From contig CP011209.1 in NCBI GenBank assembly GCA_001029635.1, positions 414,866 through 478,865 on the forward strand: 64,000 nucleotides of DNA. The letters run 5' to 3'. Below are positions 7,316-61,052 of the stretch, piece by piece. The position numbers and the translations under genes were made by a program. The notes beneath the pieces are model-generated. The model was given only the letters and a program-made list of their open reading frames with translations. It searched no databases and was not told the DNA's origin. How positions within the stretch are numbered: the first letter of the stretch is position 1; each line of letters opens with the position of its first letter. This DNA is from Candidatus Wolfebacteria bacterium GW2011_GWB1_47_1 (GTDB lineage: Bacteria > Patescibacteriota > Minisyncoccia > UBA6257 > UBA9933).

Positions 7316-7358
7316 TTAACATAAACCCCCTCCGTATACGAAGGGGGTTTATGTTAAA
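7316..7358. terminator. Bidirectional terminator hairpin between convergent genes
   Basis: ttaacataaaccccctccgtatacgaagggggtttatgttaa: long perfect stem. Confidence 0.6.
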
Positions 7359-10483: not shown

Positions 10484-10558
10484 ATAACGCAAAATCAGCC
10501 CCTTCTGGGGCTGATTTTGCGTTATCACGGGGCAAGCCATTCGATGGGTTGCCCCGTG
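10484..10558 (+). terminator. Two tandem GC-rich hairpins immediately 3' of tRNA-Gln (terminator / possible att-region)
   Basis: Hairpin 1: ataacgcaaaatcagcccc-ttct-ggggctgattttgcgttat (10484-10524). Hairpin 2: cacggggcaagcc-attcgat-gggttgccccgtg (10526-10558). Confidence 0.5.
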
Positions 10559-16612: not shown

Positions 16613-16810
16613 ATGGAATATTCATCTATGTATAAGAAAGGAAATACAAAGGGAATGTGCAATGGCGTGTACGGATTCGCCGTGCTTGGCGCAGCAGTTT
16701 ATTTCATTCAACACGCAACGACATTTTGGATGGGAATTTTTGGTATCGGCAAGGCGATCTTTTGGCCTGCTATGGTTATGTATAAGGTTTTGGGCATGCT
16801 TGGTATGTAA
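16613..16810 (+). CDS. Small hydrophobic membrane protein (hypothetical)
   Basis: 65 aa with two predicted TM helices, followed directly by a strong terminator. Confidence 0.35.
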   Translation: MEYSSMYKKGNTKGMCNGVYGFAVLGAAVYFIQHATTFWMGIFGIGKAIFWPAMVMYKVLGMLGM

Positions 16811-16843
16811 GAAAAATCCCCCCCCGCGCGGGGGGATTTTTCT
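16811..16843. terminator. Bidirectional terminator hairpin
   Basis: gaaaaatcccccccc-gcgc-ggggggatttttc. Confidence 0.65.
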
Positions 16844-17298
16844 TACCATATTTCGATGACCTTGAATTCACGCTCTTTTGAGCCGATCATGCCTTTTATT
16901 TGCTGACCAATGCCCTTTCCGAGGAACAGCGCGCCCAGGGGCGATGCGTATGAGATGGTATTTTTAGTGAAGGTGATATGACTCCCAATCTGAAATGTTT
17001 GTATACTATTTGTTTCCAGATCCCGCACCGTTACGGTGTGTCCGATTGCGACAGTTATGACATTTTTAGGCAAGGGGATAATTGTCGCATTTTTGCGAAT
17101 ATGCTCAAGATCTTGGAGTCGTTGCCCTAATAGTCGAGCTTGTTGTTGTGCGTTTTCGAACCCGAAATTATCGTGCCATGTTTCGGACGATTGCGTTACG
17201 GCGGTACGTAGTTCGGTACCTACTTTCCTCAACTTCTCGATCGTTTCTTGAATGCGTGCTTCTAAGACAGCCATATCCTTTTCCAGAAAATAACCCAT
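16843..17298 (-). CDS. greA: Transcription elongation factor GreA
   Basis: Coiled-coil N-terminal domain plus C-terminal FKBP-like domain with ..ISYASPLGALFLGKGIGQ... Confidence 0.9.
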   Translation of the reverse strand: MGYFLEKDMAVLEARIQETIEKLRKVGTELRTAVTQSSETWHDNFGFENAQQQARLLGQRLQDLEHIRKNATIIPLPKNVITVAIGHTVTVRDLETNSIQTFQIGSHITFTKNTISYASPLGALFLGKGIGQQIKGMIGSKEREFKVIEIW

Positions 17299-19223: not shown

Positions 19224-19655
19224 ATGAAATTTTTCATAGCGTCACCATGGAAAAATAAAGCTCAAGTTGAACAGCTTACTGAAGAACTTGAGCGCATAGG
19301 ACATTCCGCCTATTCATTCGTCAAAAGCGGAGCAAACTTATTGACGGGTAAGCCTATCGAGGCTGAAATGAAGGAATTCAGCGATGCGCTGATGAACTGG
19401 AAGGCCGATGATCGCATCGCAAAGATTGCCGAATCGGAGGTGCAGGCATTGCGAGATGCCGATGTCGTTGTACTGCTACTCCCCGCGGGGGATTCTTCTC
19501 ATATGGAAGCGGGGATTGGATATGGGTTGGGCAAACGTATGATATTAATCGGGCCGGTCGAAAAACCCGAAATCATTTATTTGCTTTTTAACCACGTATA
19601 TCTCGACGTGAGTTCGTTTTTACGGGAATTTGCATTCCCCAATATGGATGCATAA
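19224..19655 (+). CDS. Nucleoside 2-deoxyribosyltransferase-like protein
   Basis: MKFFIASPW..DADVVVLLLPAGDSSHMEAGIGYGLGKRMILIG matches the Nuc_deoxyrib_tr-like pattern (D..D.GT..E.G.A...K.vi). It is encoded on the opposite strand between def and fmt. Confidence 0.5.
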   Translation: MKFFIASPWKNKAQVEQLTEELERIGHSAYSFVKSGANLLTGKPIEAEMKEFSDALMNWKADDRIAKIAESEVQALRDADVVVLLLPAGDSSHMEAGIGYGLGKRMILIGPVEKPEIIYLLFNHVYLDVSSFLREFAFPNMDA

Positions 19656-19686
19656 AGAAACACCGCCAACGGGCGGTGTTTCTTTA
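19655..19686. terminator. Bidirectional terminator hairpin
   Basis: aaagaaacaccgcc-aac-gggcggtgtttcttt. Confidence 0.65.
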
Positions 19687-19688
19687 TG

Positions 19689-21777: not shown

Positions 21778-22287
21778 TTATGCGTTTGCACAGGCGCAGT
21801 CTTCGCCGCAGGCGCCGCGAGTCTTTTCGACCGCCTCGACGATCGCCCAGATGAGCGGCTGGATGCTTATGAGGCCGGGGTCTATGGTGCCGAGTTCAGC
21901 GAGCGTTTCTACCTGGGCTTCTGGGTCCAGTCTTTGTTCGAGCAGCTCCTTGTAGTCGTTTCGATACGGTGATATCAGGAGCATAATCGCCAGTGTCTCG
22001 TCGTCGATCTCGACGCAAAGCTCTGCGAGTGTTTCGGCCGCCGCCTTGGTGCCGAGGAACGAGAGCTACTCAGCTGCGAGTGATACACACGGTTCTTCTT
22101 GCGTACGGATGATCGCAGCCAGTATTGCTATGCGCTCGCCAACGATCCGGTCGATGATCTCTTGCAATCGGGGACTTACCACGGGGTACCTCCTTTGGTT
22201 TGGTGAGTTGCTTGTATCGGTATAGCACTGTGGGCTAAAAATGTAAAGACCGCCAACCCTAGGGTTGGCGGTCTTTGTGATGATCAT
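21778..22287 (-). pseudogene. Small Cys-rich protein gene interrupted by one in-frame TAG
   Basis: ORFs 22066..22287 and 21778..21984 share one frame, separated only by a TAG (plus-strand cta at 22066-22068): ..EEPCVSLAAE*LSFLGTKAAAETLAELCVEIDDETLAIMLL..GACGEDCACANA. Confidence 0.4.
22244..22280 (-). terminator. Terminator hairpin downstream of the GT39 gene
   Basis: aaagaccgccaaccctagggttggcggtcttt. Confidence 0.55.
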
Positions 22288-24090: not shown

Positions 24091-24531
24091 ATGGCAGAAG
24101 AAACAACAAATCAAGTTTCTGTTTCCGCGGAACAGGTTGTTGCTACGATGCATGCGCATCCGCTGGCATATCTCGTTTACTATTTGGGTGGAGTATTTAT
24201 TTTTATTGTTTCTTACTGGTACGGGTATCTTTATACGGCCGTCGGTCTCCTTGTTTTGCTCGTGAGCGAAGTGCTTCGTCGGGCGGATACGTTCTCTATT
24301 CTCGAAGACGGTGTGTCGCGTAATTTTTCCCTATTTTCCACAAAACGTGTTTTTACCGGATATGATAAGATCCAGACCGTCACCGTCATACAAAGCGCAC
24401 TGGATAGGATCTTGGGAGTTGGCACTGTCGTTCTTATCACTGCGGGACTCGAAGAGGGGACGATACAGTTTGCAGGAGTGATGAAGCCGTATGAGATAGC
24501 TAAGATGATCCAAGATAGGTTGTCCGCTTGA
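24091..24531 (+). CDS. Membrane-flanked bacterial PH-domain protein (YdbS/DUF304-like)
   Basis: Two TM helices (YLVYYLGGVFIFIVSYWYGYLYTAVGLLVLLV) followed by a bPH_2-like beta-rich domain. Confidence 0.5.
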   Translation: MAEETTNQVSVSAEQVVATMHAHPLAYLVYYLGGVFIFIVSYWYGYLYTAVGLLVLLVSEVLRRADTFSILEDGVSRNFSLFSTKRVFTGYDKIQTVTVIQSALDRILGVGTVVLITAGLEEGTIQFAGVMKPYEIAKMIQDRLSA

Positions 24532-24547
24532 GACGGCTTCTCGTTTG

Positions 24548-24648
24548 ACGAATTGCTTCGTTGCGGGTCCCCGGCGCTGCGGGCGTCGTACCGGTAAGTA
24601 CGCCTTCCTTGCGCCGCTCCCGCGCCTTGCACTTCATTCAAACGAGTG
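24548..24648 (+). repeat. Copy A of a roughly 100-nt structured intergenic element (candidate cis-regulatory RNA)
   Basis: gcttcgTTGCGGGtcc..cgtac-cggtaa-gtacg..ctCCCGCGCCttgca. About 70% identity to copies B, C and D, with compensatory changes in both helices. Confidence 0.6.
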
Positions 24649-24686
24649 CGCCTTAGACAGATCGAATAGTGAAGAAAATATGAACC

Positions 24687-25082
24687 ATGGAAGAACAATT
24701 AGAACAACAGAACAAGATAGAGGCTGACCTGCATCGTGTCGGGCAGGAGGTTCGCGAACAGGTTGGAGGAGTTGTCACACCGGAAGCTACAGAGCGTGCG
24801 TTGGTGCGTCAATCTTTGCAGCCCATGATCACCGCCCCATCAACTCAGACCCCGCAACGGGGGCGTGCGGCAACTGATGACGCAATGCTTCCTACCTATA
24901 TGAAGGATGTTACGGTCGATATTAAAGATCGCGTCGAGCGTCTTGTTGAAGATGCCTTTGCGCATGGCGTAGAGCATGCAGCGGAAGAAGCTCAGAAATC
25001 AGGCCCGTTCGTTGTGGACGCATTGCATGATGCGTTGTCAGATAGGTTCTATGAAGAATTAAAAAAGCGCAATCTCGTTTGA
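24687..25082 (+). CDS. Hypothetical protein
   Basis: 131-aa ORF between repeat copies A and B. Acidic/coiled-coil N-terminus. I recognise no family. Confidence 0.4.
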   Translation: MEEQLEQQNKIEADLHRVGQEVREQVGGVVTPEATERALVRQSLQPMITAPSTQTPQRGRAATDDAMLPTYMKDVTVDIKDRVERLVEDAFAHGVEHAAEEAQKSGPFVVDALHDALSDRFYEELKKRNLV

Positions 25083-25097
25083 TAATGTGCCAGATCG

Positions 25098-25198
25098 ACG
25101 AGTCGCTTTGTTGCGGGCCCCTGCCGGCTCGGTCGCCGTACTGGTAGTACGGCTTTCTCACCGTCTTTCCCGCGCCTCGCATCTCATTCGATCGGACT
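25098..25198 (+). repeat. Copy B of the structured intergenic element
   Basis: gctttgTTGCGGGccc..gccgtac-tggta-gtacggc..ttCCCGCGCCtcgca. It lies 41 nt upstream of the ATPase gene start. Confidence 0.6.
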
Positions 25199-25238
25199 CA
25201 TTATCATTTGGTTCTTAAATTATATTAACGAGTTAATT

Positions 25239-27617
25239 ATGCCTACCACCCTTATCGCTATCGCTGTTGTTTTATTCATCGTGGCCGCTATTTTTTTGTT
25301 TTTTGTGCGTCGTCGCGCAAACCGGATTCGTATGCGACAGGCGTTTGACTTGCATCTTCTATTGATCCGATTCCCGCGTCTTGCGCGGGCAGATGAAGCG
25401 CGAAAGGATTTTAAGGATGAAATCAATCTTTCGGCACAGCTATACAGCATCTTACTTGGATTGAAGACACCCTTTGCGCTAGAGTCTGCCGTCCACAACA
25501 TCGGAGAAGAGATCCATTTTTATATTGGTGTCCCGAAGGATATGACTGCTGCCGTCAGCAGGCAGGTCGAGGGAGTTTTTAAGGATGTGCAGGTTGAACC
25601 GATCGATGATTACAATATCTTTAATGCGACAGGAGTGAGTGTCGGTGCGTACGTGAAGCAACATTATCCGTATGCGCTTCCTATTAGAACATATCAAGAG
25701 GCAAACGTTGATACGTTTTCCCCCATTTTGAGCGGGTTTTCAAAGGTGAGCGAGATCGGTGAGGGCGTTGCATTGCAGGTATTGGTCCGCCCCGCTCCCG
25801 AGAGCGCAAAGAAACACGTCTTTTCCATACTTGGACAATTGAAGCAGGGTGCAAAATTCGAAGACGTCATGCGTGGCGCCGGCATCACGCTTAAGGATAT
25901 GCAAAAGGCGTTTATCGGAGACGTTGGTCCGACTGTCAATCCGCAGGTACTCGAGCAACCAAAGCAGGTTAATGATGAGGCGGTAAAGGCGCTTGAGGCA
26001 AAGATCGCAAAGCCTCTTGTTTTTGCGAATGTGCGATTGATCGCTTCTGCTACTAATCAGATGCAGGCTGATGATCTACTGAACGGAATAGCGCATGGAT
26101 TCGCGCAATTTTCCGCTCCATTTCGACAGGAACTCCGCATTAACAAGCCTAGGAATCTGCAACGCTTTTTACGGCAGTATTCGTTCCGTGAATTTGATGA
26201 TGACCAGTCCATTTGTCTGAATACCGAAGAGGCCGCGAGCTTATTTCATATGCCGACAACATCGCTTGAGGTGCCACGGTTAAAGATGCTGGATTCCAGA
26301 GAATCTGCGCCTCCCGATCAGTTGCCGACCGAAGGTACTCTAATCGGCGAAAGTTTGTTCCGTGGCGATCGCAAGAAGATCTATCTGACGCCACAGGATC
26401 GTGTGAGACACACATACGTGATCGGACAGACGGGTACCGGTAAGTCTACGTTGCTTGTGCAAATGGCACTTGAAGATATCAAACAAGGAAAGGGTGTGTG
26501 CATCATCGATCCTCATGGCGAATTAGTGGATAAGATTCTAAGCCTTATACCCGAGCATCGCTATGAAGACGTCATTGTGTTTGATCCGGCTGATCTTACC
26601 GCGCCAATGGGCATGAACATGCTTGAATATGACTTGACGAAGCCGGAAGAAAAGACGTTTATCGTAGGGGAGCTGTATAACATCATGGACAAGCTTTATG
26701 ATATGAAGACCGCGGGCGGTCCGATGTTCGAGCTGTACTTCAAGAATGCAATCTTGCTGCTCATGGAGGATGCGCGCAATGAGCCGGCCACGTTGATGGA
26801 AATCGGACGTATCTTTACCGATGACGCCTTCCGTGAGCGCAAGCTTGCGCGGATTTATAACCCAACTGTCATTGACTTCTGGGAAAAGGAAGCTTCAAAG
26901 TCTACTGGTGAACATTCACTGGCAAACATGACCACATATATCACTTCGAAATTAAACGCATTCACCGCGAATGATTTCATTCGTCCGATCATCGGACAGC
27001 CGCAATCGGCGTTCAACTTCCGACACGTGATGGATGAGCAAAAAATTCTCCTCGTCAGCCTTTCAAAGGGTCGCATCGGAGATCTTAATATGGGGTTGCT
27101 TGGTATGGTCATTGTCGGCAAGATCTTGATGGCAGCACTCTCACGCACCGATATTCCCGAATCTGAGCGCAAGATGTTTAATTTGTATTTGGACGAGTTT
27201 CAAAATTTTTCGACCGATGCCATTAATACCATCTTTTCTGAGGCACGCAAATACGGCTTGAGTCTGACGGTTGCGCATCAATTTGTTGCTCAATTACCTG
27301 ATAAGATCAAAAGCTCGGTATTCGGCAATGTCGGATCGAAGGTTATCATGCGTGTCGGTATTGAAGATGCTGAAGTATTTGAAAAGGATCTTGCGCCGAC
27401 TTTCACCAAGAATGATCTTGTGAATCTGAAGGCAGGGCAGGCTTATGCAAAGTTGCTTCTTAACGGCCAGGTTGCGCGACCCTTTAATATGCAGACGTAC
27501 AACGTCGCATGGGGCGAACGAACGTTAGTCGAGAAGCTGCGTGAACTGTCTCGTTTGAAGTTTGGGCGTGATCGGCAGGAGGTGGAGGAAGATATATTGC
27601 GGAGATTAAGAAATTAA
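25239..27617 (+). CDS. TraD/VirD4-type (TrwB-like) coupling-protein ATPase with an N-terminal TM anchor
   Basis: N-terminal TM helix. Walker A HTYVIGQTGTGKSTLLV ..GKGVCIIDPHGE. Walker B NLYLDEFQNF. The overall H.L..G.TG.GKS...DP.GE pattern matches type IV secretion DNA-transfer ATPases. Confidence 0.55.
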   Translation: MPTTLIAIAVVLFIVAAIFLFFVRRRANRIRMRQAFDLHLLLIRFPRLARADEARKDFKDEINLSAQLYSILLGLKTPFALESAVHNIGEEIHFYIGVPKDMTAAVSRQVEGVFKDVQVEPIDDYNIFNATGVSVGAYVKQHYPYALPIRTYQEANVDTFSPILSGFSKVSEIGEGVALQVLVRPAPESAKKHVFSILGQLKQGAKFEDVMRGAGITLKDMQKAFIGDVGPTVNPQVLEQPKQVNDEAVKALEAKIAKPLVFANVRLIASATNQMQADDLLNGIAHGFAQFSAPFRQELRINKPRNLQRFLRQYSFREFDDDQSICLNTEEAASLFHMPTTSLEVPRLKMLDSRESAPPDQLPTEGTLIGESLFRGDRKKIYLTPQDRVRHTYVIGQTGTGKSTLLVQMALEDIKQGKGVCIIDPHGELVDKILSLIPEHRYEDVIVFDPADLTAPMGMNMLEYDLTKPEEKTFIVGELYNIMDKLYDMKTAGGPMFELYFKNAILLLMEDARNEPATLMEIGRIFTDDAFRERKLARIYNPTVIDFWEKEASKSTGEHSLANMTTYITSKLNAFTANDFIRPIIGQPQSAFNFRHVMDEQKILLVSLSKGRIGDLNMGLLGMVIVGKILMAALSRTDIPESERKMFNLYLDEFQNFSTDAINTIFSEARKYGLSLTVAHQFVAQLPDKIKSSVFGNVGSKVIMRVGIEDAEVFEKDLAPTFTKNDLVNLKAGQAYAKLLLNGQVARPFNMQTYNVAWGERTLVEKLRELSRLKFGRDRQEVEEDILRRLRN

Positions 27618-27636
27618 ACAATTGGCTTATTGCGCA

Positions 27637-27705
27637 TTGCGAATTACGGATTTTGAACGCTGGATAATTTAAGGGGGTAATTTGTAATGCGTAATTCGCA
27701 ATGGA
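27637..27705 (+). promoter_or_regulatory. 14-bp perfect inverted repeat (cattgcgaattacg / cgtaattcgcaatg) with a 41-nt spacer, in a 5' leader
   Basis: It sits between the ATPase stop and the start of the next small gene. Confidence 0.4.
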
Positions 27706-31239: not shown

Positions 31240-31539
31240 ATGGCAATTGTTATCGAAGGAGAAAAGAAAAGTGTCGATTGGGGATTTATATTAGGTATTT
31301 TGTCAATCGTCGGCATTATTGGAGTCGCGATTGTCTACCTGTTTTTTGTAAATCCTGAAACGGTACAGCAACTCACAACTACGCCCGATCAACAGCGCCT
31401 CAGCGAATTTTCAAAGACGAAGCTAAGACCGGAGGAGATTTTGAACAGCGCCGAGTTTCAGTCACTCCGCACTACGGCAACGATACCCGTTCCGAGTGAA
31501 GGGGAGATTGGCAAGGTTAATCCCTTACTCCCACAATAA
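31240..31539 (+). CDS. Small single-pass membrane protein in the pilus operon (hypothetical)
   Basis: 99 aa, one TM helix (WGFILGILSIVGIIGVAIVYLFFV). Confidence 0.35.
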   Translation: MAIVIEGEKKSVDWGFILGILSIVGIIGVAIVYLFFVNPETVQQLTTTPDQQRLSEFSKTKLRPEEILNSAEFQSLRTTATIPVPSEGEIGKVNPLLPQ

Positions 31540-31695
31540 CCCGTATGGTCGGCGATCTACCGTGTTGCCTTCCTCGTTTGCTCCCGCGAAGGAGTCCATC
31601 TCCATCTTGGGCGCAAGCCTCGTCGGCGCCTCGCAGCTCACTCAACCATACATGTTATTGGCATCGCTATCATTATTGAATGCCGAACGAACCTC

Positions 31696-33591: not shown

Positions 33592-34668
33592 ATGACCGAT
33601 TACAAACAACAACTTAACGACCTATTACTTTCCACAGCAAAGCAGAACGCTTCCGATCTTCATATTGGTGTCGGAAAATATCCGATGCTTCGTATTGATG
33701 GACTACTTATTCCTCTACAAAAAGAGGGGATTGTTACTCCAGAAGTTGCTACTGGCTTGATTGGTGAGTTGTTGACTCCGGCGCAGCGGGAAACGGTTGA
33801 TCGCGATCGCGAGATCGATTTTTCTTATACATTTGAGGATAAGGCACGCTTTCGCGTCAACGTGTTCTACCAGAAGGGTTTTCTTGCTGCGGCAATGCGC
33901 TTGATCCCGCCTGAGGCTAGGACTGTGGAAGATCTCAATCTCCCTCCAATCCTCCATGATTTCACAAAGCTTTCTCAAGGATTTATCTTGGTTGTGGGTC
34001 CGGCGGGGCATGGTAAATCTACTACGCTTGCGGCACTTGTAGATGAGATTAACCACACTCGCACCGAACACATCATCACTATTGAAGATCCGATCGAATA
34101 CATGTTCGTACAGGATAAGGCTATCGTTTCTCAACGCGAGGTCATGAGCGATACGCCAGATTTTCACGTGGCATTGAAGTCATTGTTGCGCCAGGATCCT
34201 GATATCGTCATGATCGGAGAAATGCGTGATAAGGAGTCTATTGCGACCGCTATGACCGCGGCAGAAACGGGTCATTTGGTATTCTCCACATTGCATACTA
34301 ACTCGGCTGCGCAGACGATCGACCGCATCATCGACAGTTTTCCGCCCGATCAGCAGGGTCAAGTCGCTTCTCAATTGGCCGCAACGCTTGTGGGTATTGT
34401 TTCCCAACGTCTTATTCCGCGCGTTGATGGAGGGCGCACTCCGGCGTGCGAGATCATGATCGTTAATTCCGCTATTCGTAACCTTATCCGTGAGCGCAAG
34501 GCATATCAGATCGATCTTGTTATCGAAACATCCATGCAGGAGGGTATGATCACCTTAAACCGATCACTTGCCGCATTAGTGCGCAGTCGCCAGATCGCAT
34601 TGGAAGAAGCTGAGCTGTATTCGTTGAATGCATCTGAATTGCGCATTCTTATCGAGCGCGTCTCATAA
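33592..34668 (+). CDS. pilT: Twitching-motility retraction ATPase PilT
   Basis: ..ASDLHI..GFILVVGPAGHGKSTTLAALVD... PilT-type length (358 aa). Start at ATG 33592. Confidence 0.9.
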   Translation: MTDYKQQLNDLLLSTAKQNASDLHIGVGKYPMLRIDGLLIPLQKEGIVTPEVATGLIGELLTPAQRETVDRDREIDFSYTFEDKARFRVNVFYQKGFLAAAMRLIPPEARTVEDLNLPPILHDFTKLSQGFILVVGPAGHGKSTTLAALVDEINHTRTEHIITIEDPIEYMFVQDKAIVSQREVMSDTPDFHVALKSLLRQDPDIVMIGEMRDKESIATAMTAAETGHLVFSTLHTNSAAQTIDRIIDSFPPDQQGQVASQLAATLVGIVSQRLIPRVDGGRTPACEIMIVNSAIRNLIRERKAYQIDLVIETSMQEGMITLNRSLAALVRSRQIALEEAELYSLNASELRILIERVS

Positions 34669-34680
34669 AATATATGCATT

Positions 34681-34778
34681 TTGCGAACTGCTTTGTTGCG
34701 GGTCCTAATTGGTTCGGTCACCGTACTGATGGTACGACTTCCTCTCTAATTCTCCCGCGCCTTACATCTCATCAAAAT
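34681..34778 (+). repeat. Copy C of the structured intergenic element
   Basis: gctttgTTGCGGGtcc..ccgtac-tgatg-gtacg..ctCCCGCGCCttaca. It lies 45 nt upstream of pilC. Confidence 0.6.
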
Positions 34779-34822
34779 GGCAAATATTTTATCTAAAAAT
34801 AAACAGGGTAAAAAGCACGACG

Positions 34823-43899: not shown

Positions 43900-44781
43900 A
43901 TGAACATTCGCCGGCCAAGCGATATTAGAAAAAAACAGAATAAACGGGATTCTAAGAAGAAATACATCATCGCCGGAGGGAGCGCTGTTTTTTTACTACT
44001 GGTCGTCGGATCGGTATTCGGTATTCGTCAGACATCGTTGTTCCGTATCGATTCCGTTTTCGTAGAGGGGATACCGGAGGCGTATGGCGTTCAGGTGCGA
44101 CGCGATCTCGAATCCTTTTCGAGGGATCATTCGCTTGTGTTTCGATTTTTAGGTAGCGGCAATATGATCGCATGGGATGGCACACCTTCGGCGTTTTTGG
44201 ACGCAAATCCCCAATTTCGCGATGTTCGCATATTAAAGGATTATATGCGCAAGTCCGTAACCATCATTGTCGATGGCCGTGAAAAATTTGGCGTGTGGTG
44301 TCATGATCCGGCACGCTCCACCTTGATGCCGATCGAAGAAGGAGCTGCGAGCACTACGACTAATAATGAAGAATACGAAGAGGAAGAGCCGGATGATACA
44401 TGCTATTGGTTTGATCGCGATGGTGTGCTATTCGCGCGTGCTCCTCAGGTTAAGAGCGAGCTGTTTAATCGAGTCTATGATTCCACGGGGCGCTCGATTG
44501 GGTTGCGTGAAAAGATCCTTCCTGATCGGCTTTTCGTGAATTTGGCAAAGATATTCAAATTGATGGAGATGGCGCAGATCAATACCAAAACCGTATTTGT
44601 GCGCGACCTGGCATTGGAAGAAGTCGATACGGATTCAGTATCCGATCCGAGGATTATATTCAGTCTACGAAACGATCCTTTGTTCGCATTGAGCGCGATT
44701 GACGCATTAAAACAATCGGGAGAGTGGAGCGGATTGCACTATGCGAATTTTACCGTAGAGAATCGTGCTTCGTATAAATAA
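43900..44781 (+). CDS. FtsQ/DivIB-like cell-division protein (POTRA domain)
   Basis: Basic N-terminus, a single TM helix, then ..FRIDSVFVEGIPEAYG.. (POTRA-like). An acidic low-complexity insert (EEYEEEEPDD). Confidence 0.45.
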   Translation: MNIRRPSDIRKKQNKRDSKKKYIIAGGSAVFLLLVVGSVFGIRQTSLFRIDSVFVEGIPEAYGVQVRRDLESFSRDHSLVFRFLGSGNMIAWDGTPSAFLDANPQFRDVRILKDYMRKSVTIIVDGREKFGVWCHDPARSTLMPIEEGAASTTTNNEEYEEEEPDDTCYWFDRDGVLFARAPQVKSELFNRVYDSTGRSIGLREKILPDRLFVNLAKIFKLMEMAQINTKTVFVRDLALEEVDTDSVSDPRIIFSLRNDPLFALSAIDALKQSGEWSGLHYANFTVENRASYK

Positions 44782-44835
44782 TGACCAGACAAATAAAAAA
44801 TCATCCGGGAGAAGGATGATTTTTTATTTGTCTGG

Positions 44836-46533
44836 TCATTCCACATGCGAAGACAGTTTTTTTATCAGCTTCAGATCCCACTCCTTTAGATCGTCTAGCA
44901 GTTTCATGTGAGGATCGATTGCGATCGACCGCCCCAGGTATTGGCCGCTCGTAAAGTGGGGGAATATGACGTAGTCCGCGCCGTGCTGATATAACCGCTC
45001 CACCTCCTTTTCATCATCCGATCGAACGATAATTTTTATGTTGCACCCTTGCTTTTTAAGAGTAGTAACCTCCTTGATCAACATGTCGTTGTTTTTGAAA
45101 TCGGATGTGGTTGATATAACAAGCCGTGCATTGTGTAGATTTGCCTTTTCCAATATCTCCTCATCATCGATATCGCCAAATAAATATGTGTACCCATATT
45201 TTTTCAAAAAGTGGATTATTTCGGGATCGAAGTCGATCACGAGCACATCTTCTTTTTTGAGATTGAATGCAATACTTTGGCCGATACGATGCGCTCCGAT
45301 AAGTATGATGGGTTTCGCGAACTCTTCATCTTCGGATATTTTTTCCGAGAGGTTTTTCCGTTGGAACAATGATAGGAGCGGGATTAGTCGCTGATAGATT
45401 GGCTCCGCGTGCGTTACAAGATACGTCGAGACTGCAATACTAAGAATCGTCGCTCCCGTTATAATGGCGACAATCTCGGTCGAGAGATGTCCGAGCTTCA
45501 TGCCGATACTCGCAAGCACAAGGCTGAATTCGGATACCTGTGCAATGGTCATTCCCGTGAAAAAGGATGTCTTTTTGCGATAGCCCATAGCTCCCATGAT
45601 CGCGAGTATGACGAGCGGCTTGATAATTAATACGAACAGCGTGAACGCCATAAGTGGCAGGATGATGTTTGTATAACTGGAAAACACGAGTGATGAGCCA
45701 AGAATGACAAAGAAGATGAGGATGAAGAAATCCCGTAGATATTTTATCTTTGAAACAATCTGAAACTGATGGGATGAACTCGAGAGGGATATACCCGCAA
45801 GTAATCCGCCTACCTCGATCGGGAAGCCGATGGCAGGATGCGATACGGTTGCCGCAACGATGAATGCCCAGCTGAGACTACTGAAGAAGGTTAATTCTTG
45901 AGAGAGCGCTATCTTGTCGAAAATGACTGGGATAACCTTTCTCCCGATAAGGATCGTTGCTCCAAAGAGCAGGGCCGCCTTGCCGATTGTGAGTGCCAGT
46001 TGCATAGGCATAAACCCGGTTCCTGACGCAATGCCCGAAAGAAGTACGAGAATGAGAATGACTACCATGTCCTGAATTAAGAGGAGTCCAACGCTTAACT
46101 TGCCATAGAGGCTACCCGTATCTTTTTTTTCTGAGAGCATCTTTATTACGATGACTGTGCTTGATAGCGTGAGCGCTATCGCAATATAGGCCGATTCGAC
46201 CGGAGAAAAATGGAACAGCGTTGAAAGTAGAAACCCGAGCGCGAACGTGAGTGCGATCTGCGCCCCACCGATAACAAAGGACGGTTTGCCTATTAGTTTT
46301 AATGACTTGAAGTCTATCTCGAGGCCTACCAGGAAGAGTAGGAACATAATCCCCAGGTCGGAGAAGATTCGAAGCGTTTCCGCATTATTTAAATGAAAAA
46401 GGCCCAGATGGCTGATGATAATACCCGTACCGATGAAGGCCAAAATAAGCGGTTGTTTAAAAAGTCGCGCAATGATGCCAAGCATGGTTGCGATCAAAAC
46501 CACGACGGCGAGTTCTAATATTCCTGTACCCAT
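44836..46533 (-). CDS. CPA2-family cation:proton antiporter with a C-terminal RCK/TrkA-N domain (Kef-type)
   Basis: Polytopic N-terminal exchanger domain. C-terminal Rossmann ..ILIGAHRIGQSIAFNL..VLVIDFDPE... Confidence 0.8.
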   Translation of the reverse strand: MGTGILELAVVVLIATMLGIIARLFKQPLILAFIGTGIIISHLGLFHLNNAETLRIFSDLGIMFLLFLVGLEIDFKSLKLIGKPSFVIGGAQIALTFALGFLLSTLFHFSPVESAYIAIALTLSSTVIVIKMLSEKKDTGSLYGKLSVGLLLIQDMVVILILVLLSGIASGTGFMPMQLALTIGKAALLFGATILIGRKVIPVIFDKIALSQELTFFSSLSWAFIVAATVSHPAIGFPIEVGGLLAGISLSSSSHQFQIVSKIKYLRDFFILIFFVILGSSLVFSSYTNIILPLMAFTLFVLIIKPLVILAIMGAMGYRKKTSFFTGMTIAQVSEFSLVLASIGMKLGHLSTEIVAIITGATILSIAVSTYLVTHAEPIYQRLIPLLSLFQRKNLSEKISEDEEFAKPIILIGAHRIGQSIAFNLKKEDVLVIDFDPEIIHFLKKYGYTYLFGDIDDEEILEKANLHNARLVISTTSDFKNNDMLIKEVTTLKKQGCNIKIIVRSDDEKEVERLYQHGADYVIFPHFTSGQYLGRSIAIDPHMKLLDDLKEWDLKLIKKLSSHVE

Positions 46534-47720: not shown

Positions 47721-47773
47721 ATGTGATTATCCTACAATAAAAATTCCGCCAGACAAAGTGTCTGGCGGAGTTT

Positions 47774-48232
47774 TTATGCACGCTTGGATATTTTTTTGGG
47801 CGTCGCTTTTGTCACCTTTACTGCGACCTTCTTTCCTATTTTCGCAGTATCTTTGGGTATCGTGATCACGAGAATGCCGTTTTCGCATGATGCTTTAATC
47901 TTCTTTTCGTTGACCGGTACCGGCAAACGAATTAGGCGTTCAAATGATCCCCTCCGTATCTCCTTCCTCCAGTAGCCTTTTTCTTGCTCCTTTTCCTTCT
48001 GCTCTGAGGTGCCCGCTATATGGAGAATACCGTCCTTGATCGAGATCTCGATCTTGTCGGCATCAATACCAGGGACGTTCATTTCCGCTATGACATTCGG
48101 ACCTTTCTCATAGATATCCATCGACGGTCGCAGTGGCGCATAGTCCGATAGTGATGGAAAATCGGCGTCGAAAAAACGGTCCATGTCAAAGAGTGATCGA
48201 TAGGGTAATAATGGCATATGGTGATAATACAA
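47774..48232 (-). CDS. Hsp20/alpha-crystallin small heat-shock protein
   Basis: ACD core ..MDIYEKGPNVIAEMNVPGIDADKIEISIKDGILHIAG..GSFERLIRLP..ASCENGILVITIPK. Confidence 0.85.
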   Translation of the reverse strand: MYYHHMPLLPYRSLFDMDRFFDADFPSLSDYAPLRPSMDIYEKGPNVIAEMNVPGIDADKIEISIKDGILHIAGTSEQKEKEQEKGYWRKEIRRGSFERLIRLPVPVNEKKIKASCENGILVITIPKDTAKIGKKVAVKVTKATPKKISKRA

Positions 48233-49927: not shown

Positions 49928-49995
49928 TGCAAGGCGCCAATCCTTCTGATAGAATGGGCTTAATGCGTAGCAGATCCGCTTCGCGTATAGTCCAC

Positions 49996-50096
49996 CCTGT
50001 TACAAATTTTAAAATATCTTATTTGTATTGTTACAGCGTTGTTATTCATACCGCTTGGCAATATGTCGGTATAGTATAAAATTTGTAACGGGGTCC
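49996..50096. repeat. 17-nt inverted repeat pair flanking a putative promoter upstream of the second carboxypeptidase gene
   Basis: ccctgttacaaatttta (49996-50012) and taaaatttgtaacgggg (50080-50096). TTGGCA..TATAGTATAAAAT lies between them. Confidence 0.4.
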
Positions 50097-52474: not shown

Positions 52475-52520
52475 CACAACTTAAAAACCCCCGGGAAACC
52501 CCCGGGGGTTTTTAAGTTGT
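52475..52520 (+). terminator. Strong terminator hairpin 3' of tRNA-Gly
   Basis: cacaacttaaaaacccccgg-gaaa-cccccgggggtttttaagttgtg. Confidence 0.7.
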
Positions 52521-52651
52521 GGATGAGTAGATACGGGAATCGAAGGGTATCTGAAAAATATAAACTGCTTTATATTTTTCAGAACCCCGGCTTTGAAGGA
52601 GGAGTGGAACCTGTGCGAATTTATGAGCACGATGGAGCGACGGGTGAAAAG

Positions 52652-55658: not shown

Positions 55659-55670
55659 GGAGTGCATGGG

Positions 55671-55775
55671 GTTCGCGAACCGTTGCGTTGTGGGCCCCTG
55701 TTGCTTCGGTCGCTGTATCGGTAAATACAGCTTCCTCAGTAACTTTCCCACGCCTTACGTTTCATCGAACCGCAT
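55671..55775 (+). repeat. Copy D of the structured intergenic element
   Basis: ccgttgcgTTGTGGGccc..gctgtat-cggtaa-atacagc..ttCCCACGCCttacg. Both helices carry compensatory substitutions (GCGGG/CCCGC becomes GTGGG/CCCAC; CGTAC/GTACG becomes CTGTAT/ATACAG). Confidence 0.6.
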
Positions 55776-55868
55776 GCACTCCAGTATCCCTAGGCTAAAC
55801 CTTGCATTTTACTGGGGTTTAGTGTATGGTAATAACTGACTAATTTAAGCAAATCCCGAAAAACTCTT

Positions 55869-56054
55869 ATGTTTTCACGTCTTACTTCGTATATTCAGGA
55901 ATCGCGGCAGGAATTTAAGCGCGTCAATTGGCCAACTCGCCAAGAGACGATTCGATTGACCGGCATGGTTATTGGACTTTCGCTCATCTTCGCCGTATTT
56001 TTAGGGGTATTGGATATGGTATTTAATTATATTCTTGTTACGTATCTCATATAA
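55869..56054 (+). CDS. secE: Preprotein translocase subunit SecE
   Basis: 61 aa. ..EFKRVNWPTRQETIRLTGMVIGLSLIFAVFLGVLD.. It lies directly upstream of nusG, the conserved secE-nusG-rplK order. Confidence 0.8.
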   Translation: MFSRLTSYIQESRQEFKRVNWPTRQETIRLTGMVIGLSLIFAVFLGVLDMVFNYILVTYLI

Positions 56055-59026: not shown

Positions 59027-59088
59027 GTACGTCATTCGATGACGTACATATAGCCATTATTAAAAATCCTCTCAATGAGAGGATTTTT
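59027..59088. terminator. Two tandem hairpins between convergent genes
   Basis: atgtacgtcat-tcg-atgacgtacat and aaaaatcctctc-aat-gagaggattttt. The latter arms recur at 61020-61052. Confidence 0.55.
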
Positions 59089-59099
59089 AACTGCACATA

Positions 59100-60976: not shown

Positions 60977-61019
60977 TGTGATTATATTGAAATGGATTCC
61001 CGCCTGCGCGGGAATGACA

Positions 61020-61052
61020 GAAAAATCCTCTCATTCGCGAGAGGATTTTTTT
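61020..61052. repeat. Second copy of the aaaaatcctctc/gagaggattttt hairpin, overlapping the scpA 3' end
   Basis: gaaaaatcctctc-attcgc-gagaggatttttttatc. The last roughly 7 codons of scpA (..KKSSRE*) lie inside it. Confidence 0.45.

What the first reader, a model, noticed from the sequence alone, without database searches (positions are those of the whole stretch)
24548..24648. Four-copy, roughly 100-nt structured intergenic element with compensatory base changes (candidate novel cis-regulatory RNA or structured repeat)
Four same-strand copies lie at 24548-24648, 25098-25198, 34681-34778 and 55671-55775, each downstream of a stop codon and upstream of the next start codon. The downstream genes are unrelated: a hypothetical protein, a VirD4-like ATPase, pilC and secE. 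All four copies share 5' GYTTYGTTGYGGGYCC..TCGGTC and 3' TTYCCCRCGCCT. The outer helix GCGGG/CCCGC becomes GTGGG/CCCAC in copy D. The inner hairpin CGTAC-loop-GTACG becomes CTGTAT-loop-ATACAG in copy D and extends to GCCGTAC/GTACGGC in copy B, with variable loops (TGGTA, CGGTAA, TGATG). Pairing is preserved while sequence drifts, which indicates selection on RNA structure and not coding. The functional diversity of the downstream genes argues against a metabolite riboswitch and for a general leader element (processing, stability or translation control) or a structured MITE/REP-like repeat. I do not recognise it as any known Rfam family, though I cannot be sure it is absent from Rfam.
Basis: seen in the sequence. 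Interest (0 to 1): 0.85.

Follow-up and report, generated by a model that had tools for sequence, protein, structure and literature searches.

The report
Conserved long hairpin repeat after stop codons
The four look-alike intergenic sequences are real and belong to an undescribed family of about 125-base hairpin elements, found in many ultra-small "candidate phyla radiation" bacteria, that start right at the stop codon of the preceding gene and are kept in shape by natural selection, probably to set the end or stability of that gene's messenger RNA.

Summary
The window comes from a Candidatus Wolfebacteria genome. It holds five same-strand copies, the four reported plus a divergent one at 31534-31660. 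Each copy is a single hairpin of 114-140 nt.

Related copies occur in Wolfe-, Kaiser-, Lloydbacteria, other Paceibacterota and a Saccharibacteria MAG. Covariation is very strong: 30 of 33 pairs show double changes, and no shuffle out of 500 did as well. Rfam and the searchable literature give no match.

- The copy-specific basal arms begin at or next to the stop codon of the upstream gene.
- The distance to the downstream gene varies, and that gene is sometimes convergent. The element is therefore a 3'-of-gene element and not a leader.
- Copies sit at orthologous sites in diverged genomes, change by compensatory substitution in place, and are often lost by deletion.
- Strand signals conflict. 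G·U pairs are about as rare as A·C pairs, the loops are 80% pyrimidine, the complement folds better, and two sites carry the element antisense.

My best reading is a host-maintained 3'-UTR or intercistronic hairpin, similar in lifestyle to REP and ERIC elements, that acts as an exonuclease barrier or RNase III site and has a protein-recognised core. A DNA-level role is a serious rival.

The parts
24535..24652 (+). Copy A, the copy in the finding. The full hairpin is 118 nt and lies between the bPH-domain gene (stop TGA at 24529-24531) and the 131-aa hypothetical gene (start 24687). P1 is 24540-24548 with 24638-24646, and a weak basal GGC/GCC pairs 24535-24537 with 24650-24652.
   Evidence: orthologous copies in L029 and L036
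24560..24567 (+). Conserved 5' core of copy A, GUUGCGGG. This is the 5' strand of P2 and holds the invariant U of the U·G wobble and the bulged U. The same motif is at 25110-25117 (B), 34695-34702 (C), 55687-55694 (D, GTTGTGGG) and 31564-31569 (E, GTTGCC variant).
   Evidence: (U·G in 28 of 28 copies)
24619..24627 (+). Conserved 3' core of copy A, CCCGCGCCU. This is the 3' strand of P2 plus the conserved CU of the internal loop. The same motif is at 25169-25177 (B), 34754-34762 (C), 55747-55755 (D, CCCACGCCT) and 31623-31631 (E, TCGGCGCCT).
25080..25206 (+). Copy B, a 127-nt hairpin. Its basal arm TGATAATG...CATTATCA starts with the TGA stop codon of the 131-aa gene (25080-25082). The VirD4-like gene starts at 25239.
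   Evidence: (I18); orthologues in L025, L030, L034 and L035 with covarying basal arms
31534..31660 (+). P2 is GCC/GGC and P4 is GGAG/CUCC. The basal arm CAATAAC...GTTATTG contains the TAA stop (31537-31539) of the 99-aa ORF. pilB starts at 31696.
   Evidence: 81% identical orthologue in L031
34665..34792 (+). Copy C, a 128-nt hairpin. The basal arm ATAAAATAT...ATATTTTAT contains the TAA stop of the PilT-like gene (34666-34668). pilC starts at 34823.
   Evidence: (I21); orthologue in L032 with a compensated basal arm, AACGC/GCGTT
55659..55782 (+). Copy D, a 124-nt hairpin. The basal arm GGAGTGCATG...CATGCACTCC starts immediately after the TAG stop of gyrB (55656-55658). secE (55869-56054) follows after an 86-nt spacer that contains a promoter-like TTGCAT-N17-TATGGT.
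   Evidence: (I20)

Best explanation
SHOWN. The sequences belong to an undescribed family of about 125-nt structured elements. The family is widespread in CPR/Patescibacteria.

Each copy is one long hairpin with these parts:
- Copy-specific basal arms (P0/P1, about 17-20 bp) that begin at, or within a few nucleotides of, the stop codon of the preceding gene.
- A conserved asymmetric core: CGA...GC..GUUGYGGG and CCCRCGCCU..GC...UCAY, with an invariant U·G wobble, a bulged U and pyrimidine-rich internal loops.
- Two freely covarying inner helices, P3 and P4.

Copies are old residents at orthologous sites. They evolve in place by compensatory substitution and are frequently lost by deletion. They are not leaders of the downstream gene, and they lack the U-run of a canonical intrinsic terminator.

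INFERRED, as the most likely mechanism. The element is co-transcribed as the 3' UTR or intercistronic spacer of the upstream cistron. There the long, nearly perfect basal helix would block 3'-to-5' exonucleases, or serve as a double-strand-specific (RNase III-type) processing site, or both. Either action would define the 3' end and stability of the upstream message and uncouple it from its downstream neighbour. The conserved core would serve as a recognition site for an unidentified protein. Because the helix starts at the stop codon, terminating ribosomes must open its base, so translation of the upstream gene could modulate the effect. In lifestyle it is the CPR counterpart of REP/BIME and ERIC elements.
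For: Structure and selection:
- On 28 copies, 93.8% of cells are paired against 73% in shuffles and about 40% when the partners are slid.
- 30 of 33 pairs show changes on both sides, and 0 of 500 shuffles did as well. A MAFFT alignment that was not fitted to the model gives the same result.

Anchoring to the upstream gene:
- In 19 of 20 cases the stop codon lies within -7 to +5 nt of the first paired base.
- In at least 11 copies the stop codon itself is paired, with TAA/UUA, UGA/UCA and UAG/CUA partners.

Orientation: 17 independent sites are sense to the upstream gene and 2 are antisense (binomial p about 0.0007).

Not a leader: the downstream distance is 12-280 nt, and the downstream neighbour is a convergent tRNA in L007.

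Not a canonical terminator:
- No T-run follows the hairpin.
- The scan calls no terminator at the elements.
- The same window has many classical A-tract/GC-stem/T-tract terminators, which also overlap stop codons. The element therefore occupies the 3'-end position at junctions that lack a terminator.

Host-level maintenance:
- Each of the sites A, B, V, E, C and 'def' is shared by at least two genomes of different clades.
- Orthologous copies share site-specific quirks and carry compensated changes in P0, P1, P3 and P4.
- Internally deleted remnants show how copies are lost.

Other points:
- The basal helices are 17-20 bp and nearly perfect, which is about two helical turns and matches the substrate geometry of RNase III (established knowledge).
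- Comparable repeats at gene 3' ends are co-transcribed and alter mRNA stability (review PMC3184786).
Against: - There is no expression or end-mapping data, so transcription of the element is inferred only from its position.
- Strand-specific RNA signatures are missing. Apart from the invariant U·G, there are 20 G·U and 17 A·C pairs among about 880 cells.
- Unpaired positions are 80% pyrimidine, which is unusual for structured RNAs.
- The complementary strand folds better in 24 of 27 copies, by 5.9 kcal/mol on average.
- Two sites carry the element antisense to both neighbours: 117aa to def in L025 and L030, and S5 to L15 in L002. These copies keep the core and the stop-codon anchoring. A purely sense-RNA, core-dependent function does not explain this.
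- One copy (L014) lies in a divergent promoter region with no upstream stop codon.
- A simple barrier would not need a conserved core. The proposed protein partner is hypothetical.
Confidence: 0.42

Rival explanations
1. The element works at the DNA level. The quasi-palindrome would function as folded single-stranded DNA or as an extruded cruciform. Possible roles are a recognition site for a structure- and sequence-specific protein (a recombinase, a transposase-like HUH or tyrosine enzyme, or a topology or nucleoid protein, as proposed for gyrase/IHF binding to BIMEs) or a supercoil sink at the ends of transcribed genes. The invariant T·G mismatch and the bulged T would mark the strand, as extrahelical bases do in integron attC sites.
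For: - The helices are almost purely Watson-Crick. G·U is no better tolerated than A·C (20 against 17), as expected if both strands, or DNA, must pair.
- Both strands fold, and the complement folds better.
- The core and the stop-codon anchoring are conserved in both orientations relative to transcription.
- The loops are pyrimidine-rich, which is atypical for RNA.
- The position after the stop codon is shared with attC sites and REPs.
Against: - The 17:2 orientation bias follows the transcription direction. Two copies 8 kb apart on one contig (L010 and L011, seen together in L026) point in opposite directions, each sense to its own gene.
- Anchoring to ORF ends is a transcript or translation landmark.
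- There is no attC R''/R' consensus at the hairpin base, no GTAG/CGTC REP tag and no conserved termini.
- No associated recombinase or transposase gene was seen next to any copy.
Confidence: 0.25
2. The element is a selfish, non-autonomous mobile element (MITE- or REPIN-like) with no host function. The hairpin and core would be conserved only because a trans-acting transposase needs them.
For: - There are multiple copies per genome: 5 in 64 kb, and 5 in 17 kb in L030.
- Presence and absence at orthologous junctions is patchy.
- Relationships are mosaic. L030_V shares a rare P2 variant and an identical P4 with L030_E, and shares P3 and P4 with L001, while the outer arms differ. This suggests copying or conversion of interiors.
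- At the def site the insertion reshaped a gene overlap and the C-terminus of the 117-aa protein.
Against: - The outer arms are copy-specific, whereas MITE termini are the conserved part. I saw no direct-repeat or TA duplication (criteria from PMC3184786).
- Every site examined is shared by genomes of different clades, so the copies are old.
- Orthologous copies stay at 67-81% identity and keep the consensus core and pairing in genomes whose proteins are 70-90% identical. Neutral spacer sequence would have been randomised at that divergence.
- Variation is concentrated in compensated helix positions and is not spread at random.
- There is no match in viral contigs.
Confidence: 0.1
3. The element is a hairpin-only or factor-dependent transcription terminator or attenuator. 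It would end or throttle transcription after the upstream gene without a U-tract, and the core would bind a regulatory factor.
For: - It has the same position relative to the stop codon as the classical terminators of this genome.
- It occurs at the ends of transcription units before convergent genes (L007, and probably L005) and before a promoter-like site upstream of secE.
- It does not co-occur with classical terminators in the same spacer.
Against: - There is no U-run.
- The genome plainly uses classical terminators.
- Many copies lie inside apparent operons, such as pilT-pilC, rpsF-ssb and ftsA-downstream, where full termination would be harmful.
- A stem of about 125 nt far exceeds what termination needs.
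Confidence: 0.1
4. The element is a catalytic or trans-acting RNA. The core would be a new self-cleaving ribozyme that splits polycistronic mRNAs, or the hairpin would be excised to give a roughly 100-nt small RNA with its own function.
For: - The core has invariant nucleotides concentrated in internal loops flanked by covarying helices, including an invariant G·U next to a bulge.
- There are many copies in unrelated gene contexts, as with bacterial hammerhead and twister ribozymes (established knowledge).
- The long basal helix could be cut on both strands to release the core.
Against: - There is no resemblance to any ribozyme or RNA family in Rfam at E up to 5-10.
- The pyrimidine-rich loops and the lack of G·U enrichment are atypical.
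- The antisense copies are equally conserved.
- The architecture is an unbranched rod with no pseudoknot signal.
Confidence: 0.06
5. The element is a 5' cis-regulatory leader that controls processing, stability or translation of the downstream gene.
For: - In the window four copies end 30-40 nt before the next start codon.
- L014 lies 73 nt upstream of murA in a divergent region.
Against: - Across loci the distance to the next start is 12-280 nt, whereas the distance to the upstream stop is constant.
- The downstream neighbour is a convergent tRNA in L007.
- Downstream genes share no function.
- At orthologous junctions the downstream gene does well without the element.
Confidence: 0.04

Closest known systems
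ERIC (enterobacterial repetitive intergenic consensus, also called IRU) elements
   Same: ERIC elements are imperfect palindromes of about 127 bp that form one long hairpin. They are interspersed in intergenic regions at gene 3' ends, are co-transcribed, and are reported to affect the stability of the upstream mRNA (PMC3184786). Their presence among related genomes is patchy.
   Different: ERICs have conserved terminal inverted repeats and a flanking TA duplication. In the present family the termini are copy-specific, the conserved part is internal and asymmetric, and I saw no duplication. There is no sequence similarity, and the host phylum is different.
REP/BIME elements of E. coli and REPINs of Pseudomonas
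   Same: These are extragenic palindromes lying just after stop codons. They are proposed to act as 3' exonuclease barriers in mRNA and as DNA-level protein binding sites. From my own knowledge, REPs within about 15 nt of a stop codon can stall terminating ribosomes (Liang, Rudd and Deutscher 2015, not retrieved here). Also from my own knowledge, REPIN arms show compensatory change (Bertels and Rainey 2011).
   Different: REPs are 20-40 nt long and carry a GTAG or CGTC tag (PMC3733652 abstract). REPINs are two conserved REPs around a variable spacer and depend on a RAYT transposase. In the present family the conserved and variable parts are the other way round, the length is about 125 nt, and no RAYT is known.
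Neisseria Correia (CREE/NEMIS) elements
   Same: They are hairpin-forming repeats of 100-155 bp, often co-transcribed with neighbouring genes. Their transcripts are processed, by RNase III according to my own knowledge of De Gregorio et al., and this changes mRNA levels (PMC3184786, cites this work for mRNA stability).
   Different: Correia elements have conserved TIRs, a TA duplication, an IHF site and outward promoters, and they show recent mobility between strains. None of these features was seen here.
Phage T7 intercistronic RNase III processing signals
   Same: These are stem-loops with internal loops placed between cistrons of a polycistronic RNA. Cleavage leaves a protective 3' hairpin on the upstream message (established knowledge). 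This is the working model proposed here.
   Different: The T7 signals are about 50-60 nt, have no conserved family-wide core of this kind, and are not host-genome repeats. Cleavage of the CPR element is untested.
Integron attC recombination sites
   Same: attC sites are 57-141 nt long and lie directly after, often overlapping, the stop codon of the preceding ORF. Their structure is conserved while their sequence varies. Their unpaired or extrahelical bases define the active strand, and their orientation relative to the ORF is fixed (established knowledge).
   Different: attC conservation lies at the hairpin base (R'' RYYYAAC paired with R' GTTRRRY). Here the base is the variable part, and GTTGCGG pairs with CCGCGCC, not with an AAC box. 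The flanking genes are core genes (gyrB, rpsF, mreB, ftsA, pil), not cassettes. No integrase was seen.

Membership tests
Any Rfam 15 family | A covariance-model match at or near the family's gathering score | tested here: not met
   The whole window at gathering threshold gave only two tRNAs. Permissive scans (E up to 5-10) over copies A and B and over four loci holding five further copies gave no hit on any element.
MITE (ERIC/Correia type) | Terminal inverted repeats whose sequence is conserved among copies | tested here: not met
   The outer 17-20 bp arms differ completely between copies of one genome, for example TGATAATGTGCCAGATCGA against ATAAAATATATGCATTTT against GGAGTGCATGGGGTTCG. The conservation is internal.
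MITE (ERIC/Correia type) | Target-site duplication (TA or another direct repeat) flanking the element | tested here: inconclusive
   By inspection there is no consistent direct repeat or TA at the hairpin boundaries of the five window copies or of the filled sites compared with the empty ones. The boundaries are fuzzy and the insertions are old, so a decayed duplication cannot be excluded.
MITE / mobile repeat | Evidence of recent mobility: near-identical copies or strain-level insertion polymorphism | tested here: not met
   Mean pairwise identity is 61%, and nearest neighbours are 67-84% identical. Every site examined is shared by genomes of different clades. Only mosaic similarity of the interiors hints at past copying.
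REP / REPIN | A 20-40 nt palindromic unit with a GTAG or CGTC tag. For REPINs, two conserved inverted REPs plus a RAYT gene in the genome. | tested here: not met
   The unit is a single hairpin of about 125 nt with variable ends and no GTAG or CGTC tag at either end. The presence of a RAYT gene could not be tested without the whole genome.
Intrinsic (Rho-independent) terminator | A G+C-rich stem immediately followed by a U-run | tested here: not met
   The ten bases after the hairpin contain no T-run in 23 of 24 copies. The terminator scan calls none of the elements. Classical terminators do exist elsewhere in the window.
Integron attC site | R''(RYYYAAC)/R'(GTTRRRY) boxes paired at the base of the hairpin, within a cassette array next to an integrase | tested here: not met
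   The hairpin base is variable. The only GTT is internal and is paired as G-C, U·G and a bulged U with GCC. The neighbours are core genes.
Riboswitch / gene-specific 5' leader | Constant association with, and spacing to, a functionally coherent set of downstream genes | tested here: not met
   Downstream genes are unrelated: VirD4-like, PilB, PilC, SecE, SSB, a permease, an aaRS and a tRNA on the other strand. The spacing is 12-280 nt.
RNase III-type intercistronic processing signal (function-defined class) | A double-stranded region of about two helical turns or more within a co-transcribed spacer | tested here: met
   P0 plus P1 give 17-20 nearly perfect base pairs, continued by P1b, P1c and P2. 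The location is between co-directional genes without terminators.
RNase III-type intercistronic processing signal (function-defined class) | Actual cleavage by RNase III, and processed transcript ends | not testable with these tools
   No transcript data or enzyme assay is available.

The most novel reading that the evidence does not exclude
The element would be a CPR-wide, host-selected functional module of a new kind. One form is an RNA whose conserved core recruits a dedicated protein, or is itself catalytic, and couples translation termination at the paired stop codon to mRNA cleavage or decay in these minimal genomes. The other form is a strand-marked folded-DNA site for an unknown recombination or topology system that is preferentially associated with type IV pilus and secretion loci.
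Probability: 0.2. Interest if true: 0.8.

Novelty: new member of a known kind. Interest (0 to 1): 0.62.

Why it matters
- CPR/Patescibacteria make up a large part of bacterial diversity, yet almost nothing is known about their non-coding or post-transcriptional biology.
- This element is long and conserved across several candidate phyla. It is present several times per 10-60 kb in genomes of about 1 Mb that are otherwise under strong deletion pressure, so it is very likely to do something.
- It gives a concrete, easily synthesised target for studying mRNA 3'-end formation and operon processing in organisms that cannot yet be grown alone.
- It provides a covariance model that would improve annotation of CPR genomes.
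- It is an unusual test case in which covariation is overwhelming but the usual signatures do not reveal whether RNA or DNA is the selected molecule.
- Its enrichment in type IV pilus and T4SS-like loci may bear on how these episymbionts regulate their attachment and DNA-uptake machinery.

Tried and rejected
1. Known RNA family. Rfam scans at gathering and permissive thresholds gave nothing.
2. tRNA or tmRNA-like. ARAGORN finds only two ordinary tRNAs.
3. Canonical terminator. There is no U-run, and the scan calls none of the elements.
4. Promoter inside the 3' half (TTGCAC as a -35 box). I inspected the spacing to a -10-like hexamer in five copies and it is not consistent. The promoter scan is not enriched over shuffles.
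5. attC site, REP and MITE. The defining features are not met (see the membership tests).
6. Core inserted into the loops of pre-existing terminator hairpins. Empty orthologous sites show no hairpin made of the arms, and the arms lack a GC stem adjacent to a T-tract.
7. Orientation set by the replication strand. This was attractive because all five L030 copies are on the + strand, including the one between minus-strand genes. It is contradicted by the convergent L010/L011 pair 8 kb apart and by the antisense copy in a ribosomal-protein operon.
8. Phage origin. One pattern match in viral contigs did not match the covariance model.
9. The Acidimicrobiales match (L003) and the matches L015 and L017 were chance pattern matches with no model hit.
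10. Similarity of the complement to 16S rRNA (GGGGCCCGCA) and to 4.5S RNA (CCCGCAACG). I noticed these by eye and judged them to be chance 9-10-mers. Rfam's SRP and rRNA models do not hit.
11. Literature. Eight searches found no description of this element.
12. A check of Liang et al. 2015 through PMC5009743 failed. That paper is cited from my own knowledge only.
Full report
**1. Checking the observation**

The four sequences are present on the + strand at about the stated positions. They align at 71-76% mean column identity. A core pattern, GTTGNGGGNCC-N35-65-TCCCNCGCCTNNCNNNTCAT, hits exactly these four places in the window and none in 100 dinucleotide shuffles.

RNAalifold on the four copies predicts one unbranched hairpin. 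In 18 of its 37 pairs at least one copy has changed both sides and kept the pair.

A covariance model built from the four copies, run without filters, finds a fifth, divergent copy at 31543-31651 (+) between a 99-aa ORF and pilB. A broader model scores it at 65 bits and finds nothing else in the window.

Pfam confirms the gene context: bPH-domain protein | A | 131-aa hypothetical | B | VirD4-like; PilO, 99-aa ORF | E | PilB; PilT-like | C | PilC; GyrB | D | SecE (61 aa), NusG.

The 131-aa protein is 100% identical to a protein of Candidatus Wolfebacteria bacterium GW2011_GWC2_46_27x on a 984-kb contig. This identifies the source organism.

**2. Anatomy**

The hairpin is larger than reported. 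Outside the conserved part, every copy has a further basal stem of copy-specific sequence. The whole structure is 114-140 nt with a median near 125.

From the base upward the parts are:
- P0/P1: 17-20 nearly perfect pairs. The outer part is free in sequence and the inner 4 bp are semi-conserved (UUGG/CCAA, AUCG/CGAU, UUGA/UCAA).
- A C / AU internal loop.
- P1b (GAA/UUC).
- P1c (UGC/GCA).
- A 3x3 pyrimidine loop (UKY/CUU).
- P2 (G-U-[U]-GYGGG with CCCRC-G-C), containing a U·G wobble found in 28 of 28 copies and a bulged U.
- A YCCCU/UUU loop.
- P3: 4-7 bp of any sequence.
- A small UCGGUC/CUUCCUC region, which is a true helix in some lineages.
- P4: 4-8 bp, usually GUAC/GUAC, with a variable loop.

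The full window coordinates are A 24535-24652, B 25080-25206, E 31534-31660, C 34665-34792 and D 55659-55782.

**3. Distribution**

One exact-pattern scan of 185,579 species genomes returned 12 loci. Eleven are confirmed by the model. They come from Candidatus Wolfebacteria (two genomes), Kaiserbacteria, Lloydbacteria, an unclassified Paceibacterota MAG, a Saccharibacteria MAG and an unnamed MAG. The Acidimicrobiales match is a chance hit.

The metagenome scan added copies from three long Wolfebacteria-like contigs and two short contigs identical to window copies C and D. The viral scan gave one chance hit.

The pattern demands the consensus core, so the true range is probably wider. Divergent subtypes (window E, L031_E, L004:1004-1113) were found only with the model.

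Rfam 15 has no matching family. Eight full-text searches found no description of the element.

**4. Covariation**

On 28 model-aligned copies:
- 93.8% of cells are standard pairs, against 73.1% after shuffling the partners and 33-52% when the partners are slid by 1-3 columns.
- 30 of 33 pairs show changes on both sides.
- The covariation score is 0.558 against 0.181.
- No shuffle out of 500 reaches the observed value on any measure.

A MAFFT alignment of 20 copies that was not fitted to the structure gives the same picture. The pairing is therefore selected or otherwise actively maintained. This is not a chance palindrome.

**5. What the element is tied to**

The constant landmark is the end of the preceding gene. 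In 19 of 20 cases with a clear co-oriented upstream ORF, the first base of its stop codon lies between -7 and +5 of the first paired nucleotide. The remaining case is L029_A. There the stop codon lies +14 nt into the hairpin, inside P1 (the TGA of UUGACG).

In at least 11 copies the stop codon itself is base-paired, with a matching partner: TAA/TTA, TGA/TCA or TAG/CTA.

The PilT stop codon sits at the same place in relatives with and without the element. The stop is therefore ancestral, and the 3' arm has been fitted to it.

The distance to the next start codon ranges from about 12 to 280 nt. In L007 the next gene is a convergent tRNA-Phe. In the window, copy D is followed by an 86-nt spacer with a promoter-like TTGCAT-N17-TATGGT before secE.

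Upstream genes are diverse and often highly expressed or structural: GyrB, ribonucleotide reductase, Hsp20, S6, MreB, FtsA, KhpA, a LOG-like protein, PilC, PilT and pilin-like proteins. Downstream genes are equally unrelated.

This rules out a gene-specific leader or riboswitch and makes it a 3'-of-gene element.

It is not a classical terminator. No T-run follows it, and the terminator scan does not call it. The same window has many textbook bidirectional terminators with an A-tract, a GC stem and a T-tract. These also overlap stop codons, for example 19651-19688, 16807-16846, 47737-47777 and 7316-7357. The element thus occupies the 3'-end slot at junctions that have no terminator.

Four of the five window copies lie within 10 kb of the T4SS-like and type IV pilus cluster. 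Two of the eleven unrelated genome hits also follow pilus genes. This suggests enrichment there. My rough estimate for the window is p about 0.003.

**6. Evolutionary behaviour**

Using homologues of the 131-aa protein, I fetched nine syntenic loci from related Wolfebacteria. Their VirD4 proteins are 78-92% identical, and a 580-aa membrane protein is 58-87% identical. I scanned these loci with the model.

Presence at orthologous junctions is patchy:

| Site | Junction | Present | Remnant or variant | Absent |
|---|---|---|---|---|
| A | bPH to 131aa | window, L029, L036 | internally deleted remnant in L030 | six genomes, with spacers of 6-68 nt |
| B | 131aa to VirD4 | window, L025, L030, L034, L035 | - | four genomes, with spacers of 3-69 nt or overlapping genes |
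| V | VirD4 to 114aa | L030, L036 | - | the rest |
| E | 99aa to PilB | canonical type in L030, L034, L036 | variant subtype in the window and L031; deleted remnants in L029 and L032 | L035 |
| C | PilT to PilC | window, L032 | - | - |

Every site is shared by genomes from different clades of the protein trees. Orthologous copies also share site-specific quirks:
- Site A: P1 is CTCGYTTGA, and the P4 loop is shared.
- Site B: the basal arm runs through AGAATGT/ACATTCT, AGAATAG/CTATTCT and GATAATG/CATTATC.
- Site V: CGAAACG/CGTTTCG and CGAAATG/CATTTC.
- Site E: P1c is UAC/GUA.
- Site C: the same P1, with the basal arm changing from AATAT/ATATT to AACGC/GCGTT.

The copies are therefore old residents that change by compensatory substitution where they sit, and they are repeatedly lost by deletion. 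Orthologous copies remain 67-81% identical, although neutral spacer sequence should be randomised at this divergence. The differences are concentrated in compensated helix positions.

This is purifying selection, or an equivalent maintenance process, acting on resident copies. It is not the signature of a recently spread MITE. The MITE hallmarks are also missing, because the termini are the variable part and I saw no flanking duplication (criteria from PMC3184786).

Some mosaicism points to occasional copying or gene conversion between copies. L030_V and L030_E share a rare A-U variant in P2 and an identical P4. L030_V and L001 share P3 and P4, while all three have different arms.

**7. Which molecule and which strand**

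This question is unresolved.

Evidence for a sense RNA:
- 17 independent sites are sense to the upstream gene and 2 are antisense (p about 0.0007).
- The element is anchored to ORF ends.
- The closing helix is variable, as in typical RNA families.
- There is an invariant U·G wobble.
- Two copies 8 kb apart in one contig point towards each other, each sense to its own gene (L010/L011 in L026). This argues against orientation being set by the replication strand.

Evidence against a purely sense-RNA function:
- The helices are almost exclusively Watson-Crick. Apart from the invariant wobble there are 20 G·U and 17 A·C pairs in about 880 cells, with 0-2 and 0-3 per copy. In established RNA families G·U greatly outnumbers A·C (my own knowledge).
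- Unpaired positions on the gene-sense strand are 80% pyrimidine: C 0.38, U 0.42, A 0.09, G 0.11. This is the opposite of the usual A-rich loops.
- The complementary strand folds more stably in 24 of 27 copies, by 5.9 kcal/mol on average (Wilcoxon p = 1.4e-5).
- At two sites the element lies antisense to both neighbours. One is between a 117-aa gene and def in both L025 and L030, which are orthologous. The other is between rpsE and rplO in L002. These copies keep the consensus core, and their basal arm still contains the stop codon of the gene that reads into them.
- One copy (L014) sits in a divergent promoter region upstream of murA.

One reconciling inference is that the hairpin as such works in either orientation. 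The sense orientation would be preferred because it keeps the mRNA free of purine-rich, Shine-Dalgarno-like and AUG-containing loops. The complement reads GAGGAAG and GGAUGA. Under this reading, what conserves the core in antisense copies remains unexplained.

**8. Mechanism**

I commit, at about 0.4, to the following model. The element is co-transcribed as the 3' UTR or intercistronic spacer. Its long basal helix acts as a 3'-exonuclease barrier, or as a double-strand-specific (RNase III-type) processing site, or both. This fixes the 3' end and stability of the upstream cistron and uncouples neighbouring cistrons, as in phage T7 intercistronic signals and as reported for ERIC, Correia and REP elements (PMC3184786). 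The conserved core would be a protein recognition site. Because the helix begins at the stop codon, terminating ribosomes must melt its base, which could link the effect to translation.

What is shown:
- The structure and the selection on it.
- The position and the orientation bias.
- The absence of terminator features.
- The age and turnover of the copies.

What is inferred:
- Transcription of the element.
- Nuclease involvement.
- A protein partner.
- Coupling to ribosomes.

The main rival, at about 0.25, is a DNA-level role for the folded or extruded palindrome. It would explain the strand symmetry and the antisense copies better, and the orientation bias worse. The lesser rivals are a selfish MITE, a hairpin-only terminator, a ribozyme or excised small RNA, and a 5' leader.

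**9. Novelty and verdict**

No Rfam family or paper in the searchable library describes this element. In kind it belongs with interspersed structured intergenic repeats such as REP, BIME, ERIC and Correia. I therefore rate it a new member of a known kind. It differs from the other members in these ways:
- The layout is inverted, with variable ends and a conserved asymmetric core.
- It is conserved across candidate phyla.
- Its hairpin base is anchored at the stop codon.
- Resident copies show clear long-term maintenance.

It is a well-supported and experimentally tractable lead in a group of organisms where non-coding biology is almost unexplored. Interest: 0.62.

Noticed in passing
window 19651-19688, 16807-16846, 47737-47777, 7316-7357, 52475-52521, 10484-10525, 22245-22276, 59060-59090, 61016-61055: There are many textbook bidirectional intrinsic terminators (A-tract, GC-rich stem, T-tract). 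Several have arms that contain the stop codon of the flanking gene. Gene ends in this compact genome are generally fused to their 3' hairpins.
   Followed up: partly
window 27635-27703: A different long hairpin follows the VirD4-like gene: an 18-nt arm CATTGCGAATTACGGATT, 94% complementary to its partner, around a 33-nt interior. It is unrelated to the family. At the same junction L030 and L036 carry a family element, and L031 carries yet another hairpin (CGGCATTGTCAT...ATGACAGTGCCG). This junction seems to collect hairpins of several kinds.
   Followed up: partly
window 44768-44852 and 49994-50094: Two further long inverted repeats. The first has 39-nt arms (87% complementary, 7 nt apart) between convergent genes. 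The second has 24-nt arms 53 nt apart, upstream of or overlapping the start of the ORF at 50028. I did not check whether they belong to repeat families.
   Followed up: no
L031 15617-15878 (between PilM and the next gene): Arrays of short tandem repeats (GAGGTATGA-type units on one side and CTCCCAT units on the other) flank an assembly gap of Ns. This may be a long inverted tandem-repeat structure that broke the assembly.
   Followed up: no
L002 742-1925 (Candidatus Wolfebacteria GW2011_GWE2_44_13): rpsE (S5) is followed directly by rplO (L15) with no rpmD (L30) between them. The spacer where L30 would lie holds a family element in antisense orientation. From my own knowledge, absence of L30 is a reported CPR trait.
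   Followed up: partly
window 31534-31660 and L031 17327-17434: A distinct subtype of the element (P2 GCC/GGC, P3 GUUUGC/GCAAGC, P4 GGAG/CUCC) is shared by two genomes from different clades. Their sister genomes carry the canonical type at the same junction. This implies replacement, conversion or recombination between lineages at this site.
   Followed up: partly
window 24091-27617 and the syntenic loci L025, L029-L037: There is a conserved gene cassette of unknown function: a 580-aa membrane protein (minus strand), a bPH-domain protein, a 131-aa hypothetical protein (40 homologues, all without Pfam domains) and a VirD4-like ATPase with a DUF8128 N-terminal region. It lies next to the type IV pilus genes.
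   Followed up: no
L030 1858-2211, compared with L031 6105-6458 and L032 6227-6559: Where the element lies between the 117-aa gene and def, the 117-aa ORF reads into the element and stops at the TGA of GGATGA, which is the complement of the conserved TCATCC. This gives it a different C-terminus. In genomes without the element the two genes overlap.
   Followed up: yes
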